Assembly (NCBI GenBank): GCA_964016885.1 | Contig: OZ024743.1 | Location: 279,558,001 to 279,622,000, forward strand | Direction: 5' to 3' | DNA from: Eledone cirrhosa | Taxonomy: Eukaryota | Length of the DNA: 64,000 bases | Shown: in pieces, positions 480 to 54,886 of the stretch | Numbering within the stretch: the stretch's first letter is position 1 | How the letters are laid out: every line of letters starts with the position of its first letter | Notes under the pieces: model-generated | The model's database searches: none | What the model was told of the DNA's origin: nothing | Seen by the model: the letters and a program-made list of their open reading frames with translations, nothing else | Translations under genes and position numbers: made by a program

Positions 480-1468
480 AACACCAACGCCAACACCACC
501 AGTGATATCATCGTCGACGACGCCACCGCCGTAACCGCCGCCACCACCGCCGTCACCACCGCCGCTGCGCCACCGTTGTCGTCGTCGTTATCATCATCAC
601 CATCATCATCATAAACATCAACATCAAGACGACCACCAATATCATAACGGCCATTGCCATCAAATCAAGAAACATAATCACCATCACGACCACCACCGAC
701 ATCTCCAACTTAACCACCACTAACAACGACAATACAAAAACAACTAAAATGTAAAAGATTATCTCCACCCACTACCCTAAATCCAACCCCATTGCTAGAT
801 TCACCTCTAACTCCAAGAATCAGCAATAACAGCTATTACACACCACAATTGCCACTACCACTACCACAAAAACAGCCTACATTACCATCATCATTACCTC
901 ATACAACACTGAAGCACAACTAATAGCATTGCAGCCATTACCACAGATCACCACCAACACAACACTAATATTTCAATGCTGAAAGTTACCATCACCATAA
1001 GCACCCATACCACAACACACACCATCACCATTTTGACTTACCACACCCCAAAACCCTACCATCATATTATAGAATACATCAGCCAAAAGGAAAAAAAAAG
1101 CGAGATCATCATCATCACAAAAGCTACAACAAACGTCAATACCACAACATAGACACCACCACCACCACACCATAACAAAAAAACTGCCACTGCATCATAA
1201 CATCACCAAAACTATAACCACTAGCAGAGTCACTGCCACATTACATCACCATCATCGACACCACTATCACGGCTACCATCACAAACATGAACAGACAAAA
1301 TAACAATGCAAACAACACATTAGCTACCACCTCGACTGCTACACCGACTAACACCATAGTATTATCAATATTATTACGACGTTTGCCACAAACACCATAA
1401 TGATATCCACACTAAAATTGATATTACATCATTATATCAAATGCTGCTGCTGCTACTACTGCTGCTGT

Positions 1469-1520
<52 letters not shown>

Positions 1521-1580
1521 GCTGCTGCTGCGGGTGGTACTGGCGCTGGTGGTGCTGGTGCTGCTGGTGGTACTGCTGCA

Positions 1581-1650
<70 letters not shown>
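480..1650. repeat. Degenerate (CAC/ACC/CAT)n low-complexity tract ending in (CTG)n/(CTA)n arrays
   Basis: Cryptic trinucleotide periodicity, with pure CTA runs at ~1470-1520 and 1582-1650. Confidence 0.9.
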
Positions 1651-1654
1651 TGGA

Positions 1655-1756
1655 TACACACAAGGCCAGCAATTTTCCCAATGCACTACTGGTGCTTTAT
1701 TTTATCGACCCCGTAAGGATGAAAGAGAAAGTTAACCTCAACGGGATTTGAACTCA
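1655..1756 (-). mobile_element. tRNA-derived SINE family A, partial copy
   Basis: Reverse complement of the family consensus gagttcaaatcccg...aactttgcctttcatccttacggggtcgataaaataaag, which recurs more than 12 times in the window. Confidence 0.8.
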
Positions 1757-1779
1757 TATAATATAATACAATGCAAATG

Positions 1780-1830
<51 letters not shown>

Positions 1831-1832
1831 TG

Positions 1833-2160
1833 ATGATGGCTGCAACACGATTTCGAGTACTGCCATTGCTTGATACTTAAGCATGAGGATCACGGACGTG
1901 GCTTTTTAATCTTGCTATGGATTTGCCTATGCCCAGCAATACCATGCATCACTAAAAGTATCAAGCGATGCCTGTACTTGAAGATTTTTGAAGTGAGGAA
2001 AGGTTTTGCGGGGGACCAATCCCACTCTCTGAACATCGAATGCCTAAAAAGAAGAACTGGTCTACATCATTGGGTGCAAACGAAGTCGTGTGTTTTATAT
2101 CAGAGTGACCTTCTCCTAGAGTCATGTCTTAATGAAGACTAGGAGTCTCTCGCCCCACAA
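1833..2160. mobile_element. Old interspersed repeat, related to 49945-50240
   Basis: Shares gatggctgc, cccactctct, ttttat-tcagagt and ccttct-ctaga blocks in the same order as 49945-50240. Confidence 0.4.
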
Positions 2161-2200
2161 AATGTTTTTCTTGTCTTCGTGAAGCGAGAAACTCCTAGTC

Positions 2201-2270
<70 letters not shown>

Positions 2271-2272
<2 letters not shown>

Positions 2273-3560
2273 GCCATCATTTAGCAACGTTTTACTCTTT
2301 GTATTTTGTACATGCTATTATCTGTCAAATATGGAAGTTTGTGTTGGCTTCTTTACAATTAATTTACACATAGTATTTTGCTGCAATGTTGGCAGTTGTC
2401 AAATCAAACGGATTTCCAGCCTTCTCCATACTGTAATATTAGGTCTATCTAATAATACTTTGTCCTGTCTGAACTTTCATTTTTATTAAGACGGCAAGGA
2501 ACAATTAGAAGGATTTCGGCTGCTATTTCTAGCTGGTCGAGCGAATATATAACGGCTTCTTAGTTGGCATCTCTCTTTAAACAGATTTGTTATTGAACCT
2601 TGGATTTCCTGTTTACTTCTCAAGTCATAGTCACACAGTTAATAACACATTTCATTGTCTCTCATTTTATCGCATATATCTCTCTAGTTACTCTTAGCAT
2701 GTTATCAGATATCTATAACTTAACCTTTTTTAATCATGTTTTATATATTTCTCAATATTCTCTTTGTTATTATTAACTGATCCACCAGATGACGTTTCAT
2801 GTGCTGTATGAAAGATTTCAATCCCCCATTTTTAATATAATTCATATTTTCCCAATAATTATCCAACAGTTCTATCGTTAAGCATTTTGTATCTGTATAA
2901 AACATTACTTATAACGTTTGAAGGCTGTCTTTATATGTCGTAACCTTTAGAGTTGAGTTGTCTAACATTGTAGGTTGTGTAGAGGGTGAAGTTAAATGTA
3001 GTTTATAGAAACGTGAGAAAATATGGGGAAATTACGAAATATCAAAATGATATCAAAATAAGTAGCATTATCGATTACTGCTCTTCAAATTTTAATATCT
3101 GCTACACTGTGTTACTCCAACTGAATTGAGTATGTATCTATTGAATCAAACCATAAACTTATATCATTGAAGCATTATTATTTTACAATATATACATGCG
3201 TTGTTGCATCTTCTACGTAACTTTCTTTCTTGCTTGATATATGTAAGGAGGATTTATTCCAATAGTGTACAGAAATGTATATTTTTCTCATACATAGTTG
3301 AGGAAGGACATTAGCCATACATTTTGTGCATCATCTCCAATATTCCGGGAATTCATGCATTAGGAAGCAGTGCATCAGAATAACAAGTTATCCCAAGAAC
3401 AGAGGTCGGTTCCGAATGCTTACAACTCTGCTAAACGCACTCGTGACTCAGGTGTTGGTTTTAACCGGCAAACAACAATATAATAGTACAAAATGTTTAC
3501 ATCAATACTGTCCACATTAACTACGTTAATATTCCTTCATTCCTGTTGTAGCTTATGAGT
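2271..3560 (-). pseudogene. Possible very old Penelope-like reverse transcriptase remnant
   Basis: Minus-strand peptide scraps LWFDSIDTYSIQL and NPFDLTTANIAAKY resemble the PLE motifs WFxxI...FIQLD and NPPF...TNIG, in the expected order. No ORF remains. Confidence 0.25.
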
Positions 3561-8271: not shown

Positions 8272-8315
8272 ACCGTCTATGCATTTCAGGCTTGACTGGC
8301 CTTCGTCAGGACGGT
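8272..8315 (-). ncRNA. Type I hammerhead ribozyme (minimal, palindromic stem III)
   Basis: Exact reverse complement of 8368-8411. Confidence 0.85.
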
Positions 8316-8367
8316 CCCTCCCACCGCTTGCTACTGCTGGACGTGAAAACAGTCGAGAGTGGAAGGG

Positions 8368-8411
8368 ACCGTCCTGACGAAGGCCAGTCAAGCCTGAAAT
8401 GCATAGACGGT
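8368..8411 (+). ncRNA. Type I hammerhead ribozyme (minimal, palindromic stem III)
   Basis: accgtc CTGACGA aggc cagtcaa gcct GAAA tgca TA gacggt. Stem I extends via aaggg/ccctt across a bulge. Confidence 0.88.
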
Positions 8412-37072: not shown

Positions 37073-37260
37073 GGAAAATGTTTGAAACCGACGGCAGAGC
37101 TCAAGCCGTTTCGACGGATATTTCCGGAGTCCAGAAATATCCGTCGAAACGGCTTGAGCTCTGCCCTCGGGGTCAAATATTTTCCTATTACCCACTCTAC
37201 TACCCTAAGTATTGAGTAATTGCGTTATGGTCCTTCTGGTTTCTTACCACACCTCCTTTA
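37071..37260. mobile_element. Foldback element containing the 3' half of a hammerhead on both arms
   Basis: Palindrome 37071-37187 with arms ccgtc GAAACGGC ttgagctct GCCGTC. A paralog lies at 42009-42197. Confidence 0.8.
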
Positions 37261-37490
37261 CACTGTATGCTTAATTAAAAGCATTTTGAAGACCTTACGC
37301 TATTGTTTTAAGTTACTGACTATATCACTTACTTCTTTTTTCAACAAAAAGAAGTAAGTAACATAGTCACTACTTTAAAAGAATAGCGTAAGGTCTTCAA
37401 AATGTTCTAATTAAGCATAAAGTGTATTGCAAAACACACTATATATACATTCATATATATATATCGCTATTTCAGAGCACCAATTCTAAT
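37261..37490. mobile_element. Short foldback derivative of the 52.8-53.6 kb family
   Basis: Same sequence as 53461-53603, with an inverted 5' arm and centre ttttttcaacaaaaaga. Confidence 0.85.
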
Positions 37491-37571
37491 CACCCGGACA
37501 GTTTTGATAATACTGTTTCGCAATATTATTTGTGAAGAGGAATACCAAAATCCTAGCTCATCAGCGGGTGA
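37490..37571 (-). ncRNA. Type I hammerhead ribozyme with long stem II
   Basis: Reverse complement of 38168-38249. Confidence 0.88.
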
Positions 37572-37787
37572 AGAATTATTAATATCCTGGCCAGTTCTAA
37601 ATATAATAAAAAAAAAACTGGATAGTGTGCGTATATGTAACGCAGATGGTTCCAGAGCTTAGCGTCTGTCGCAGACTCACGCCACTAAAAATAGCAGCAG
37701 ATTACTCGACATTTGAATTAGCTCGACGAATTAACGGAGCCGAATATATATATATATATATGTCTATATATTTATATATATATATAC

Positions 37788-37970
<183 letters not shown>

Positions 37971-38167
37971 AATATATAGACATATATATATATATATTCG
38001 GCTCCGTTAATTCGTCGAGCTAATTCAAATGTCGAGTAATCTGCTGCTATTTTTAGTGGCGTGAGTCTGCGACAGACGCTAAGCTCTGGAACCATCTGCG
38101 TTACATATACGCACACTATCCAGTTTTTTAAATTATATTTAGAAGTGGCCAGGATACTAATAATTCT

Positions 38168-38249
38168 TCACCCGCTGATGAGCTAGGATTTTGGTATTCC
38201 TCTTCACAAATAATATTGCGAAACAGTATTATCAAAACTGTCCGGGTGA
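38168..38249 (+). ncRNA. Type I hammerhead ribozyme with long stem II
   Basis: tcacccg CTGATGA gc(34 nt)gc GAAACAG tattatcaaaa CTGTC cgggtga. 7-bp stem I, 4-bp stem III and a GUC site. Confidence 0.9.
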
Positions 38250-44457: not shown

Positions 44458-47400
44458 TTATTATTAGCCACAAGGGCGCACAAGAAAAGGTGACAAAACA
44501 AAGACATGCCGGGGATTTTACATACAATGGTGTAAACAAATATTATAACAATCGAAATCCCCAATAGGGGGGAGGCGCCACAAATGGGTTGTTTAATACC
44601 CGGTCGATATAACAACCCTCAACTTCAGGAGCGTGTTGTGCATGTGCTCCCTTCTTCGTTTTGCTCTCTTCTTTAACCTACAGGCTTATAAACAGAGAAG
44701 GCCCAATCACTCGGGCCATTTTCGCTTCATTCACCCACCTTTCAGTAAATTTACTGGGGTGCAGTGCCTCTCTCTCCACTCTGATTCTTCTTCTAAAGTG
44801 ATACTTAAAGAAGGGAATCAATTGTTGTCCGGAGAGAAATGCATCTGTCCTCAGTCCTCTCAATCTCATCCACCATATAACCTCTTTCACCATAGCCACT
44901 GTACAGAGGAAAGCCGCTTCTCTTTCGTTTTTGAAAGAGGCTGGCGGTTTGGTCCTTACTATGGACTCGGCAATCAACTGGATTTGTCCCATACGCGACA
45001 GCAGTTGTTCTGCATAGTTCCAAAGGTCTCTTACGCACTGGCACTGAACAATTGTGCGTGCAAGACGGTTTCAATGTCCTGCTCGCATCTTGGGCACGTC
45101 CTCTTGGAAGGATCCCTGCCGGGGCGTCCGTACCTGTAGATATTGTCTCGAACGGGTAGCACTGCCAGGCCAGGGACCTCTGGAAGTTGTCCATAGGTCC
45201 CGGGCGGAAAGTCCTACCGAACAGACTGGTGAGCTCGTCGTCTTCGATGCCTAGAGTCTCCCCGAGCACGACGTCGCACTTGTAAAGTACTAACCCGCTA
45301 TAGAATGTCGAAGTGGAGTCTCCACTGATTCCTGTTCCCGCTTGATAGAGGACTGTGAGCACCTGAGCGCATTCAATATGCCAGGCGCCCATCTTCTTTG
45401 GTATTCGCTTGACCCAGGACTGCATCTCCGTCAGTGAGACAAGTTGTGGGAAGGCCTGTCTCATAAACGGTGCCCAGACAGGTTGGTCGATGTGGAATAC
45501 CTGGAGATGCCGTAGCCGCAGCGCATGTTTGCGCATCATTAGCCACGGCATGCCCAGCCCTCCGTTGCGAAGGTGTTGACAGCATACGGATCTCCTCACC
45601 AGTGGAGCTTGTTTCTTCCACAGGAACTGGAAGAGTATGCCTTCCATCTTGGTGAGGTATTCACGGGGACAAGGTACGACAGTCAAGCGGTAGTAGATGA
45701 CGGTCGCTATGAAAGTGTTCAACTGTTTCGCTCGACCTTCAAAGACAGTTTGCACTCTGCCCACTTCCGGGTGAACGCAAATACCTTGGCCATGACCTCG
45801 TTCCAGTTTTTCTGCACCTGGAGGTCTGGACGCAACCAGACCCCGAGCAATTTCACCGGTCCTTCCATCCAGCGTCTGACGACACTGTCGGACGGCATCA
45901 GTTTGCTTCTCCACGTACCGAGTTGCAAACCGACAGACTTGTCCGGGTTTAGTTTTGCTCCTGTGAACCTTTCGTATTCCTGTAGTAGGTTGCCGATTAC
46001 CTCGATTTCCGATGTTTTCGACACCATTACCGTCACGTCTGCAGAAACCGACGCCGCTTTTCGCAGTACCGGTTCTAAAGATATGCCCTGCAAAAGCTCC
46101 AACTTCCGCAGTAGTGGCTCTAGAGTCAATACGTACAGAATGGGGGAGAGAGGGCATCCCTGTCGTATAGAACGCGTAATTGCGAACGGCTCCGATAGGT
46201 AGCTGTTCACCTTGACCGTCGAGCAAATATTGGTATGCCTTGATCCAGCCTCTGAAAACGGGACCGAAACCGGCCGCCTTGAGAACCGCTTGCAAGTATC
46301 GATGGTCGACCCTATCGAATGCCTTAGACTGGTCTAAATTGATCAGAGCCCCACCGGAGCCGGGTTTACACCCCATCCTCTCTATGATGTATCGCATGAG
46401 GTGGAGGTTGTCGTGTATAGACCTGGTCGGGATTGCACACGTTTGCGCTTTCCCTACCAGGTTTTCAATGACAAGCGCCAGCCTCGTTGCTAGCACCTTG
46501 GCCAAAATCTTTAACTGTGTGTTGAGCAGATTTATGGACCTGAAGTTTTTAATTTCATCCCCCTTTTCCGAAACATGACAGTCACTCCCCCTCAACCTCT
46601 CGTCTTTCTTCATCAGCGTTACTACGCCCTTGCTTGCAGAACTGGGATCCTCCCGTTCTGCTACAAATTGCAGTAGCCGGCTTCGAGGACGCCAGAGAAC
46701 AAGTCCCGCATGCTTATGTAAAACTCATAGGGTAGACCATCTAGACCGGGGGTCTTGCGTTTCCCGCAGCGGCCCAGAGCGTCCCGTATCTCAGTGTCCA
46801 TGATCGGTCTTTCGCAGAAATCGGCGCCCTTGTTCGAGAGACGTGGCAGGCCCTCGAGGTATGAACTAAAGTCCATTGCCCCGTTCGGCTCACCGTTGTT
46901 CTGCTCAAACAGTCGCGCAAAGTGCTGCTGAAATGCCGCGCACAATTGCTTGGGGTCAAGTAGCACGCGTCCGTTTTGGTCTTTCAAAGACTGAATCGTG
47001 GACTTGTTGCCACTTTTCGCCTGCGCCACTCGAGCACAGCTTTCGCTCCTTCGTTTCCTAGAACACGCGTTTTGCTTCTGACCACACAGCCTTCGTGTTT
47101 CGCGTCGAAGAACTGGTCCAGTGCCGTTCTCGACGCTAACATTCTAGGCGCGTTTCCACTCCTAAGCGCCTCTTCTACCTTGGGTACTAGTTCTGTTTCT
47201 GATTTGTTTTTCGCTAAAGCTAATTCTCTGCTAAACCCTATCGATTCTACTCTAATTGCTCTCTTGAGAGAGTAGCACCATCTATTGTTGACGATGGCTC
47301 CCGTCAACTCTTGCTTAACTAATCTACTTATCCGTTCACTGTAGGCTTTTCGTGCCGGCAACGACACGTTCAGCCTCCAGTATCCGGGTCCTTGTCTATG

Positions 47401-50650: not shown

Positions 50651-50896
50651 TGATAAGAGGAATTCCAACTTTGTCTGATTTACTCGTTTTATTTACAATC
50701 CTTTGAAATATATAATGGTATTATAATGAAATAGTATGATAGAATATTAAATTCTAAGTGTTAATTGAACAAGTTTAACACTTAGAATTTAATATTCTAT
50801 CATACTATTTCATTATAATACCATTATATATTTTAAAGGATTGTAAATAAAACGAGTAAATCAGACAAAGTTGGAATTCCTCTTATTAATATAATA
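50641..50896. repeat. ~255-bp foldback palindrome
   Basis: Arms are reverse-complementary around attgaacaagtt (~50769). The following tail ctatac-aatcatacacacccgtgtatattta also occurs at 20282. Confidence 0.93.
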
Positions 50897-51607
50897 TTCT
50901 ATACACAATCATACACACCCGTGTATATTTACCTATCTATATCTATATATAAATATATATATACACACACACTTGACCTGGAGAAAATACGCTAGTGTTG
51001 TATGAAGTGATAATATTCGCCATTATCGTATGGTATAGCAACTGTCGAATCTCCAACGATAGAATAGTCTTAATTTAGATAAACTGTTGTCTATATTCTC
51101 ATTCGAAGAACTTTTATTTTGTAGGGGAAAACGTCAATTTTCTCCGAAGCTTTTAATCACAATTTGAACTATTATGGTTTCTCTGCCATGATTTCCCTTG
51201 TACCAATTCTAGAACTCATTAAATGAAATATAAGAGTAAGAACGGGCTATTTCCTGTTAATAATTATGCCTCGTAGTCTATTGTTGATCTGAATGTTGTT
51301 GATTTTGTTTAACCCTAGTCAGGCATGATCGAATATAAATATGATGAGTGGCATTCCAGTCGAAACCATACATTCTCTATTTAGATATAACGTTTCCAGG
51401 AGTACATTATCGAACGAATCCTTCCATGGGTTAGAATTGTACTTAATGGCAATTTCGTTGCTATTTCTAGCATGTTGGAAGATTATCCTTCTTTCATTGA
51501 ATAATTGAATATTTGTAAACTCTAGTATAGGATTCAGATCTATATACAGGCATACATACACATATACACACACACACACACATACACACACACATATATA
51601 TATATAT

Positions 51608-52755
51608 AATAACTAGAAATTGATTAACATATAAATAAACATGAATAATCACAGGAGATAATTTTTACAAATGTGTAACCACACATAGCTAGGTAGGTAA
51701 CTAAATAAAGTTGACCAGAATTTCAAAAATAGATACCTTATAATATGATTAATCTTCCCTGTATATATTCCATTAAAGAAATATATTTCACCAATTAATC
51801 GGATGGTAAACCACGGAAGTGGAGACTTGGATTTTCAACAAGGAAGAAGTTCCAGCGATCCGTGTTTACACTTCAAGTTCAAATCAGCGACTGGCCAGTA
51901 ACACCTGCTATATTTACTAGGAATACACACATCATACTAGCTTCGTCCAAGTAGCTTGAATAGGGATATCGACAACTAGAAACAGCAGTCGAGTCCATTC
52001 AACAGAGTTAGCTCTACAATTAAGGAGCCGTATTTATATATCTATATCCAAAATTAAGATGAATCAAATGAATTTAATCTAAATCAAAATTATGGGTGTC
52101 ATGCCAGAAAGACATGCGCCATATCACCTGCAAAATAAGCTCTAAGATTCTAACGAATAGGTCCGAGCATTTTATAATAACTAGAAATTGATTAACATAT
52201 AAATAAACATGAATAATCTGTTGAATGGACTCGACTGCTGTTTCTAGTTGTAGATAACCCTATTCACGCCACTGGGACGAAGCTTGTATGATGTGTGTAT
52301 TTCTAGTAAATATAGCACGTGTTACTGGCCAGTCGCTGATTTGAACTTGAAGTGTAAACACGGATCGCTGGAACTTCTTCCTTGTTGAAAATCCAAGTCT
52401 CCACTTCCGTGGTTTACCATCCGATTAATTGGTGAAATATATTTCTTTAATGGAATATATACAGGGAAGATTAATCATATTATAAGGTATCTATTTTTGA
52501 AGTTCTGGTCAACTTTATTTAGTTACCTACCTAGCTATGTGTCGTTACACACTTGTAAAAATTATCTCCTGTGATTATTCATGTTTATTTATATGTTAAT
52601 CAATTTCTAGTTATTATAAAATGCTCGGACCTACTCGTTAGAATCTTAGAGCTTATTTTGCGGGTGATATGGCGCATGTATTTCTGGCATGACATCCATA
52701 ATTTTGATTTAGATTAAATTCATTTGATTCATCTTAATTTTGGATATAGATATAT
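51608..52755. repeat. 1.15-kb compound inverted/tandem repeat (A-B-x-D-A-B'-A'-D')
   Basis: 51608-52004 inverts 52218-52614, 52036-52178 inverts 52612-52755, and block A repeats directly at 51609 and 52178. Confidence 0.9.
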
Positions 52756-52872
52756 ATATATTTATATGAATGTATATATAGTGTATTTTGCAATACACTG
52801 AATGCTTAATTAAAAGCATTTTTAAGACCTTACGCTATTGTTTTAAAGTAGTGACTATGTCACTTACTTCTT

Positions 52873-52972
52873 TTTTCAACAAACAAAGGGAGATAAGCTG
52901 ACAGATCGCTGTTTCCTAGTTTCCTACTGTTGGTATTCCCCAGAGCTTAGCACTCCCCTTGTTTGAGGAAAA
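52873..52972 (-). ncRNA. Hammerhead, mutated copy of 53371-53462
   Basis: taagct CTGGGGA ata..tag GAAAC (8-nt duplication) ag cgat ct GTC agctta. Confidence 0.7.
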
Positions 52973-53370
52973 TTATGGATGCTGGATTCTTATAGAATTC
53001 CAGTAATAATCAGGAACTGATTATCCAGGGCGGTTGCCGGTCCAGCAAAAATCGAAAATTAGAATTGTTGCTCTGAAATAGCGATATATATATATGAATG
53101 TGTATATACAGTGTATTTTGCAATACACTGTATGCTTAATTAGTCACTATGTTAATGCATAGACACTACTTTAAAACAATAGCGTAAGGTCTTCAAAATA
53201 CTTTTAATTAAGCATACAGTGTATTGCAAAATACACTATATATACATTCATATATATATCGCTATTTCAGAGAACCAATTCTAATTTTCAGTTTTTGCTG
53301 GACACGCAACAGCTCTGTATAATCACTTCCTGATTATTACTCGAGGTCTATAAGAATCCAACATTCATAA

Positions 53371-53462
53371 TTTTCAACAAACAAGGGGAGTGCTAAGCTC
53401 TGAGGAATAACAGCAGTATGAAACAGAGATCTATCAGCTTATCTCCCTTTGTTTGTTGAAAA
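53371..53462 (+). ncRNA. Type I hammerhead ribozyme with a very long bulged stem I
   Basis: ttttcaacaaacaaggggag tgc taagct CTGAGGA ata acagcag tat GAAAC ag agat ct ATC agctta t ctccctttgtttgttgaaaa. Confidence 0.85.
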
Positions 53463-53599
53463 AAGAAGTAAGTGACATAGACACTACTTTTAAACAATAG
53501 TGTAAGGTCTTCAAAATGTTTTTAATTAAGCATTCAGTGTATTGCAAAATACACTATATATACATTCATATATATATCGCTATTTCAGAGCGCCAATTC

Positions 53600-53692
<93 letters not shown>

Positions 53693-53693
<1 letters not shown>

Positions 53694-53811
53694 ATAATTG
53701 TTTCTACGTTAGGCACAAGGCCAGCAATTATCCAGTGCATTACTGGTACTTTATTTTATCGACACAGTAAGGATGAAAGGCAAAGTCAACCTCGGCGGGA
53801 TTTGAACTCAG
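53693..53811 (-). mobile_element. SINE family A, truncated copy
   Basis: Matches the family consensus in reverse. Confidence 0.85.
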
Positions 53812-54002
53812 ATACACAATTATGATAATTAAGTAACACAGAATCAGTTTTGCATCTTATACGTATTTAATCACATATTACAACTGCCGATCAGCTCAGG
53901 GTTCGATCGAGTATGTTCGTTCAGATATGTGCTTACACATGTAGACTCACACCCACATCTTTTATTGATACTCTGCTTCCCAATAGCATCAAGTGCTTAT
54001 CA

Positions 54003-54180
54003 CATGTTGTTGAAGTGGGTTTTACTCCGCCAATACATCGATATGTCCAGCTCCTGGTTGTTTTGTTATTTCTCTAAGGAACTGGAATCATATCATTGCA
54101 GTTCCTCAGAGAAATAACAACGCAACCAGGAGATGGACATATCGGAGTATTGACGGAGTAAAACACACTTCAACAACATG
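54003..54180. repeat. ~180-bp imperfect palindrome directly upstream of a hammerhead
   Basis: catgttgttgaagtg...gaactg / cagttc...cacttcaacaacatg. Confidence 0.9.
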
Positions 54181-54208
54181 TATACCTGTCTCTCCCACAC
54201 TAATTGGG

Positions 54209-54263
54209 ACTGCCTGAAGAGGTCACAGCCAATGATGGCTGTCACCGAAATATATATAGCAGT
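54209..54263 (+). ncRNA. Type I hammerhead ribozyme
   Basis: actgc CTGAAGA ggt c acagcca atga tggctgt c acc GAAA tatata TA gcagt. Confidence 0.9.
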
Positions 54264-54886
54264 ATATCTATAATTTATAATAAACGAAGCCAAATTTTAC
54301 ATATTTGACTTAATTATTTATTTATATATATATATAGTTATAATAGTGACATATACAGGTACTTAAGTTTCGTTGGGTTATACCGACCACCCACCAACCC
54401 TTACACATTCAGCCTAAAATAAAAATGACTACCTCCATATGTTGATTTCAGTTTTTTAGGAAATTTACGAGTGTTCTTTAATGGAATGTAATTTCGAATT
54501 TAGCTATAAATATACAAATCGTTTAGGTAATGTAAATGGAGGTAACTATAAAAAAAACAACACAAAAGGGGAACTTGTGCAAAGTTAGTAATACTAAGAA
54601 ATAAGATTCCTTGAAATGGAATCTGTTAGTCTGGTCTATACCATATTCTCAGAATCAATTTCGCCTCATGTGGTCGGCGACTACTAAACATACCGTATAT
54701 ACTTAGCTAAACGAGATTCCCATTCATGTATCTATACAGCTTTGCCAAAGTTAAAGTTTAATTCTACCTTCAAGTTGAGCCAACTTATAGAAGTTCATAG
54801 GCAAATGTGGTTAATCAGCCCACCTATACAGGAGGAAAAACTATATATTTTCGCCTGTTTCACTTTACAACAGAGAGTAGGGAAGC

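What the first reader, a model, noticed from the sequence alone, without database searches (positions are those of the whole stretch)
52764..53603. Retrozyme-like ~318-nt monomers in both polarities, with a long-stem hammerhead
A ~318-bp monomer is present about 1.4 times on + and about 1.2 times on -, joined head to head near 53150. Each monomer has one hammerhead whose stem I extends a further ~20 bp beyond a tgc/t internal loop. The two copies carry different defects (ATC versus GTC site; CTGAGGA versus CTGGGGA), so their consensus is a fully canonical ribozyme. A more-than-unit-length, non-coding monomer is what reverse transcription around a circular RNA would leave (inference).
Basis: partly seen in the sequence, partly recalled or inferred. 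Interest (0 to 1): 0.85.

Follow-up and report, generated by a model that had tools for sequence, protein, structure and literature searches.

The report
Penelope-inserted two-armed hammerhead retrozyme copy
This is one decayed copy of a 318-base non-coding repeat with a self-cutting-RNA motif, found at hundreds of places in this animal genome, mostly as back-to-back arms with two fixed ends, which suggests that Penelope-type jumping-gene enzymes copied it from a small, probably circular RNA.

Summary
A 318-nt unit runs 1.41 times on + (53158-53604) and 1.2 times on - (53142-52758), head to head. Each arm has one damaged type I hammerhead on a 6+20-bp stem. Two corrections: the ribozyme is on one strand only, so 'both polarities' is a DNA inversion; and copies are not circularly permuted. 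In 84 sampled insertions, 109 of 140 outer ends fall at two fixed sites 26 nt apart. Where both ends could be classed, 29 of 31 arm pairs use one site each. This is the Penelope-like element (PLE) 'tail' footprint. No copy was attached to a PLE reading frame (200 loci). Arms pass the cleavage site in 102 of 104 arrivals and reach 7 units, so the template was likely circular or an uncleaved multimer. A sister family shows 8 compensatory pairs in the ribozyme. Stem III is short and palindromic, predicting cleavage as a dimer. It works like a metazoan non-LTR retrozyme. RNA, cleavage and the partner enzyme are not shown. The scan noted the same kind before on other DNA of this genome (310-, 422- and 467-nt units).

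The parts
52758..53604 (.). One two-armed (head-to-head) insertion of the 318-nt hammerhead family, subfamily A
   Evidence: (L001)
52758..53142 (-). Left arm, 1.2 units; unit position m48 through m318 to m102 (short end, no tail); 17 substitutions and 3 insertions against the family majority over 373 aligned nt
53143..53157 (.). 15-nt filler at the head-to-head junction
53158..53604 (+). Right arm, 1.41 units; m1 through m318 to m129 (long end with tail); 22 substitutions in 447 nt
53371..53462 (+). Type I hammerhead with 6+20-bp stem I; core 53400-53406, GAAA 53420-53423, predicted cut between 53435 and 53436; stems II and III damaged in this copy
52873..52972 (-). Second hammerhead copy; core A>G at 52940, 8-nt duplication near GAAA, predicted cut between 52900 and 52899
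53578..53604 (+). 26-27-nt 'tail' present at the right outer end and absent at the left outer end: the stretch between the two fixed end sites
53604..53689 (.). (TA)43 flank, inferred target microsatellite; a short TA run also flanks the left end at 52749-52757
37259..37490 (.). Second, short two-armed copy of the same family in this window, without the hammerhead, ending at the tail end

Best explanation
This is a decayed copy of a dispersed, non-coding 318-nt hammerhead repeat family that was likely inserted by a borrowed Penelope-like (PLE) reverse transcriptase-endonuclease, probably copying a circular one-unit RNA. SHOWN: fixed ends 26 nt apart used one per arm, head-to-head arms, TA flanks, read-through of the cleavage site, units made uniform within an insertion, and selection on the RNA fold. 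INFERRED cycle: (1) A locus with two or more units is transcribed. (2) Two hammerheads pair through the palindromic stem III and cut out a monomer, whose ends are held together by the long stem I and ligated; a one-ribozyme circle would then resist re-cutting. (3) A PLE protein dimer nicks both strands of a (TA)n target and primes both 3' ends, one at unit position 102 and one at 128. (4) Each enzyme runs back along the RNA, across the cleavage junction, and stops at random, somewhat more often in the long stem. (5) The two cDNA ends are joined, often through a few shared bases, giving back-to-back arms. Odds: PLE-type mobilisation about 0.9; non-autonomous about 0.85; circular rather than linear template about 0.6.
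For: Family size: 437 exact matches of a 23-mer, 0 for the reversed control. Sample of 84 of the 90 insertions among the first 100 listed matches: 56 are head-to-head; outer 3' ends fall at m95-106 (57) or m124-136 (52) of 140, against 7.9% expected. Of 31 pairs with both ends classed, 29 use one site each (p=4.6e-7). Sister family C (86% identical) uses the same two ends, 0 and -26. PLEs show 5' truncation, an inverted 5' copy and a 30-40-bp tail on one end only (10.1101/2021.04.23.441226). In vitro, a PLE extends both strands, and the tail is the stretch between two RT start sites (PMC11167929). TA runs follow 47 of 52 long ends, against 50 of 504 background positions. Arm ends overlap by 1-25 nt at 34 of 49 simple junctions. 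Read-through in 102 of 104 arrivals; arrays of 2-7.3 units exist. Successive passes of one arm differ at subfamily sites in 7 of 120 cases (37% expected from allele frequency; background 5.1%) and share 10.7% of rare alleles, against 0.4% between insertions. Fold: 8 of 31 ribozyme pairs change on both sides and 91.5% of cells pair, against 45-57% when slid. Of 102 pairs predicted on A alone, C keeps 82, changes 8 on both sides and 5 on one side, breaks 5 and gaps 2. The core varies between families only at the free position N7. The stem III loop is 4, 2 and 1 nt in A, B and C; hairpin energy is about 0 and self-dimer energy -8.8, -10.2 and -3.5 kcal/mol, matching the dimer model in PMC4209133. 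The genome holds RT+GIY-YIG frames.
Against: Rfam gave no hammerhead match for the window copies or for an intact copy. The minimum-energy fold of an intact copy (-36.8) is not the active fold (-34.7). Position 10.1-11.1 is A-U in A and U-U in B and C, not the usual G-C. No autonomous partner sharing the tail or ribozyme was found in 50 GIY-YIG loci, 252,542 bases, out of 10,596 candidates. A tested PLE does not need hammerhead cleavage and uses unprocessed RNA in vitro (PMC11167929), and both arms of L190 share a dead core, so an uncleaved template can be inserted. 31 of 140 outer ends lie elsewhere. Covariation rests on three related lineages. Uniform units can also come from young tandem source loci.
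Confidence: 0.65

Rival explanations
1. Same PLE-mobilised element, but the template is a linear, uncleaved read-through transcript of a tandem source locus (or the enzyme jumps between linear monomers); no circle is needed.
For: [quoted passage not shown] Arrays of up to 7.3 units exist as possible sources (L219). A dimer-dependent ribozyme would cut slowly. Both arms of L190 carry the same dead core.
Against: A purely linear, 5'-truncating route cannot regrow arrays. Each subfamily's alleles are uniform across passes. The long stem and core stay under compensatory selection across three lineages. None of 38 cores listed shows an indel at the cleavage junction, which template jumping might leave.
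Confidence: 0.25
2. The unit is simply the pseudo-LTR of an autonomous PLE, and these are its 5'-truncated fragments.
For: The insertion anatomy is that of PLEs. Other hammerheads in this genome do sit behind PLE frames. Xenopus retrozymes are homologous to pLTRs (10.64898/2026.07.22.740005).
Against: Upstream of the unit lies more unit, up to 7 times. No PLE frame adjoins an arm in 170 loci. In 30 family-C loci there were two PLE hits, 700 nt or more from the arms. The 27 single-arm insertions share no 5' flank and have no PLE hit.
Confidence: 0.07
3. A DNA-level fold-back or satellite repeat with a chance hammerhead-like motif.
For: No Rfam match; palindromes are common in this window.
Against: Two fixed ends used one per arm; compensatory changes and variation only at the free core position; the hammerhead descriptor found 6 sites in the window against 0-1 in 20 shuffles.
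Confidence: 0.03

Closest known systems
Metazoan non-LTR retrozymes (coral, mussel, axolotl, newt; PMC7229834, passages read; 10.64898/2026.07.22.740005, parts 1-3 of 5 read)
   Same: Unit of 150-450 bp, low GC, non-coding, one type I hammerhead per unit with a 6-bp helix I, 4-bp helix II and short palindromic helix III; dispersed plus tandem copies; PLEs in the same genome.
   Different: Here most insertions are 1-1.5-unit arms joined head to head with a one-sided tail, an anatomy not described for retrozymes in the text I read. Stem I is extended by 20 bp. Circular RNA and cleavage were shown for those animals but are untested here.
Penelope-like elements: pLTR, inverted 5' copy and tail (10.1101/2021.04.23.441226, passages; PMC11167929, parts 1-2 of 4 read; PMC4209133, passages)
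   Same: Two fixed end sites, tail on one end only, inverted 5'-truncated partner, AT-rich or microsatellite targets, hammerhead upstream of the end sites.
   Different: No reading frame; tail 26 nt rather than 30-40; full-size hammerhead with loops rather than the minimal PLE type; units repeat seamlessly.
L1 twin-priming inversions (recalled, no call)
   Same: Head-to-head junction with short shared bases.
   Different: In twin priming the two pieces copy different parts of one RNA. Here both arms start within 26 nt of each other and overlap (29 of 31 pairs total more than one unit). No poly(A) tail.

Membership tests
Metazoan non-LTR retrozyme | Type I hammerhead with intact core in a 150-450-bp unit | tested here: met
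   318-nt unit; 46 of 99 sampled cores intact; covariation. Both window copies are damaged; no Rfam match.
Metazoan non-LTR retrozyme | Tandem copies with two or more ribozymes in a row | tested here: met
   Arms with two ribozymes and a 7.3-unit array. Rare: none of 109 fixed-end arms in the 84-insertion sample exceeds 2 units.
Metazoan non-LTR retrozyme | Non-coding, low GC | tested here: met
   No ORF of 120 aa or more overlaps the insertion; GC 0.32 in 52001-54000.
Metazoan non-LTR retrozyme | Self-cleavage in vitro | not testable with these tools
   Structure only.
Metazoan non-LTR retrozyme | Expressed as monomeric linear and circular RNA | not testable with these tools
   No RNA data available here; see Tried and rejected.
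PLE-mobilised insertion | Two fixed 3' end sites; tail on one end only | tested here: met
   109 of 140 ends; 29 of 31 pairs use one site each; same in family C.
PLE-mobilised insertion | 5' truncation with inverted 5' partner | tested here: met
   56 of 84 insertions head-to-head; 5' ends spread over the whole unit.
PLE-mobilised insertion | AT-rich or microsatellite target | tested here: met
   47 of 52 long ends followed by a TA run, against 50 of 504 background.
Autonomous PLE | RT + GIY-YIG frame joined to the repeat | tested here: not met
   None adjoining in 170 + 30 loci or in 27 single-arm 5' flanks; only part of the family was sampled.
Viroid-like or HDV-like replicon with ribozymes in both polarities | Ribozyme on the antisense strand | tested here: not met
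   No antisense hammerhead core; no other ribozyme family in Rfam.

The most novel reading that the evidence does not exclude
Each arm records one reverse transcriptase of a PLE dimer running round a single circular RNA molecule, with a dimer-only hammerhead acting as a switch that cuts multimers and spares circles. The stem III loop shrinking from 4 to 2 to 1 nt across sister families would be that switch hardening. An A/G site in the long stem that never differs between passes of one arm (0 of 33) but differs between the two arms of an insertion (11 of 62) would be an RNA-editing mark showing that the same molecule was read twice.
Probability: 0.35. Interest if true: 0.75.

Novelty: new member of a known kind. 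Interest (0 to 1): 0.5.

Why it matters
That PLE enzymes mobilise animal retrozymes, and that circular RNA explains more-than-unit copies, is proposed in PMC7229834, PMC4209133 and the 2026 preprint. The passages I read give co-occurrence and sequence relatedness, not insertion footprints. This family carries the PLE two-start-site footprint on a non-coding unit in hundreds of copies. It defines a 318-nt substrate with known start sites for an in vitro rolling-circle test, and three natural ribozyme variants for a monomer-versus-dimer test. The window's own copy is an ordinary dead insertion, about 5% from the family majority.

Tried and rejected
RNA evidence: no RNA holder listed. The three listed runs are contigs of one sample of unrecorded kind and say nothing on expression. 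Metagenome scan for the 23-mer: 0 matches. Rfam hits near the locus are microRNA models on palindromes and TA repeats, far below their gathering scores. Partner search: BLAST and profile searches of 50 GIY-YIG loci found only one nested family-C insertion (L032) and one weak hit in L036, E 0.0025. RNA-editing test, a lead from e1-8803865: A>G in the long stem is 123 of 2473 against T>C 47 of 2934, with no such excess elsewhere (166 of 12722 against 165 of 10635). But G>A is also raised in the stem, the per-site test is not significant (p=0.17), and selection for G-U wobble predicts the same bias. The m223 contrast (p=0.0075) is one of 12 comparisons, so it is suggestive only. Target-site duplications cannot be read in TA flanks. 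Pile-up of 5' ends at the cleavage site, expected for cleaved linear templates: rejected, 2 of 104. The two arm lengths are uncorrelated (rho 0.10, n=31). Faulty steps repeated: the first family-C mappings (arms table, 48) used a wrong reference and were redone; the structure string was out of register and was redone. The strict core filter (30 of 100) excluded short-loop subfamily B and was redone. Literature: six searches listed no paper on cephalopod retrozymes; PMC13282606 has no 'hammerhead' or 'retrozyme' in its main text. No supplements were read, and they may list such families.

Full report
OBSERVATION. The locus is as described. Numbering the unit from 53158 (m1), the right arm runs m1-m318-m129 on + (53158-53604) and the left arm m48-m318-m102 on - (53142-52758), with 15 nt of filler between them. 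Each arm holds one type I hammerhead: a 6-bp stem I, a TGC/T internal loop and a 20-bp extension (z -4.64 and -3.02), a 4-bp stem II with a 5-nt loop, and a 3-bp stem III. Both copies are damaged: the right in stems II and III, the left in the core and by an 8-nt duplication. The antisense strand has no core, so the two polarities are two inverted DNA arms. Rfam matched neither the window copies nor an intact copy.

FAMILY. The 3.0-Gb genome has 437 exact matches to a 23-mer of stem I and none to the reversed control; DNA searches gave 1006-3042 candidates. I take the host for an octopus-type animal from recalled genome traits and from earlier scan notes; this was not tested. I mapped 84 of the 90 insertions among the first 100 listed matches, on contigs C1 and C2. 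Five were left out because they had been fetched by other searches and one was not fetched. Arms average 92% identity to the family majority. There are two close subfamilies, A and B (95% identical), and a sister family C (86% to A, 314 nt), whose arms mostly lie 93-98% from its own majority.

INSERTION ANATOMY. Of 84 insertions, 56 are head-to-head and 27 are single arms. Of 140 outward 3' ends, 57 fall at m95-106 and 52 at m124-136; 31 lie elsewhere. Only 7.9% would fall in those windows by chance, and only 16 of the 5' ends do. Of 31 pairs with both ends classed, 29 have one short and one long end and 2 have two short ends (p=4.6e-7). The window copy follows the rule. Family C uses the same two ends. 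TA runs follow 47 of 52 long ends, against 50 of 504 background positions. At 34 of 49 simple junctions the arm ends overlap by 1-25 nt. This matches PLE insertions: 5' truncation, an inverted partner and a tail on one end (10.1101/2021.04.23.441226, passages). In vitro a PLE nicks and extends both strands of AT-rich DNA and starts at two internal RNA sites that bound the tail (PMC11167929, parts 1-2 of 4). The start points are therefore fixed, not permuted; that fits a circle read from a recognised site as well as a linear RNA.

NON-AUTONOMOUS. The genome has 10,596 GIY-YIG candidates and long RT+GIY-YIG frames. Fifteen such proteins found no frame adjoining an arm in 170 family loci (two loci had hits 800 nt or more away) or in 30 family-C loci (two hits, 700 nt or more away). 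The 27 single-arm 5' flanks are unrelated to each other. Upstream of a unit lies more unit. No partner sharing the tail or ribozyme was found in 50 GIY-YIG loci.

TEMPLATE. Fifty of 109 fixed-end arms exceed 325 nt (median 317, longest 588). Of 104 arrivals at the predicted cut, 102 read through, so cleaved linear RNA was rarely the template. A search with a natural two-unit arm found arms of 525-843 nt, a 7.3-unit array (L219) and a six-piece locus (L220). Successive passes of one arm disagree at four subfamily sites in 7 of 120 cases, near the 5.1% background and far below the 37% expected from allele frequency (158 insertions). They share 10.7% of rare alleles, against 0.4% between insertions. 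Each lineage thus passed through a one-unit bottleneck, which a circle explains simply; young tandem sources are the alternative. Stops are somewhat denser in the 3' strand of the long stem (5.6 per 1000 nt) than in m1-128 (2.2-2.8), but m129-213 is similar at 4.9. At m223, an adenosine in the stem that is A or G in both subfamilies, passes never differ (0 of 33) while the two arms differ in 11 of 62 (p=0.0075, one of 12 comparisons). This is suggestive of per-molecule editing, but the wider A>G test is also explained by selection.

RIBOZYME. On 14 natural copies of A, B and C, 91.5% of cells pair and 8 of 31 pairs change on both sides (5 in the long stem, 1 in proximal stem I, 2 in stem II); slid controls give 45-57% and 1-2 pairs. 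These are three related lineages, so this counts about 8 events. The catalytic core differs between families only at N7, and the stem II loop and the internal loop are conserved. The stem III loop is 4 nt in A, 2 in B and 1 in C, always palindromic; hairpins are unstable and self-dimers stable. PMC4209133 (passages) describes this build as the usual metazoan dimer-acting type, cutting in multimers and spared in monomeric circles, and proposes circular templates for more-than-unit reverse transcription. Against: no Rfam match, a non-G-C pair at 10.1-11.1, and an active fold 2 kcal/mol above the minimum.

COMPARISON. It works like the metazoan non-LTR retrozymes of PMC7229834 (passages), which names PLEs as the candidate mobiliser. 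The 2026 preprint (parts 1-3 of 5) adds co-occurrence and pLTR homology in vertebrates and says the mechanism remains open. The sequence-level membership features are met; cleavage and circular RNA could not be tested. It fails the tests for an autonomous PLE and for a two-polarity replicon. Six literature searches listed no cephalopod retrozyme paper; supplements were not read. I had reached this reading before looking up earlier scan notes, which report the same kind for 310-, 422- and 467-nt units in this genome; a look-up by sequence returned no note on this unit. Those notes are not independent support.

VERDICT. A real feature: a dead copy of a new family of a known kind, with clear genomic evidence for PLE-type insertion and moderate evidence for a circular template. 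Interest 0.5.

Noticed in passing
window 54002-54335: Another inverted insertion with a minimal hammerhead at 54214-54258; 76% similar to the stretch downstream of a long open frame in GIY-YIG locus L075, so probably a PLE terminal repeat.
   Followed up: partly
window 37497-38242: Inverted pair of a further hammerhead family with a long stem II; the short copy of the 318-nt family (37259-37490) abuts it.
   Followed up: partly
window 8278-8405: Inverted pair of minimal hammerheads of yet another family.
   Followed up: no
window 50680-50860: Palindrome 97-99% identical to the terminal repeat of an ORF-bearing PLE family (L065, L074); explains the Rfam MIR5274 hit.
   Followed up: partly
window 51605-52760: Nested inverted repeats (402 and 188 nt, 97%) directly left of the finding; no hammerhead found and no match in 50 GIY-YIG loci. 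Unexplained; possibly another two-armed insertion.
   Followed up: partly
window 53693-53812: 120-bp SINE-like repeat with about 12 copies in the window.
   Followed up: no
window 44805-46724 (-): 638-aa open frame with a reverse transcriptase domain (E 1.9e-11); no match to the 15 PLE proteins tested.
   Followed up: partly
L219:2468-4799 and L220:2435-5883: A 7.3-unit tandem array of subfamily A and a six-piece locus of subfamily B; possible source loci, now 4-19% diverged.
   Followed up: partly
L061:2809-5622, L062:1988-4519, L063:1775-5062: Uninterrupted PLE-type frames of 938, 844 and 1096 aa; one family is about 97% identical in protein across five loci, so recently active.
   Followed up: partly
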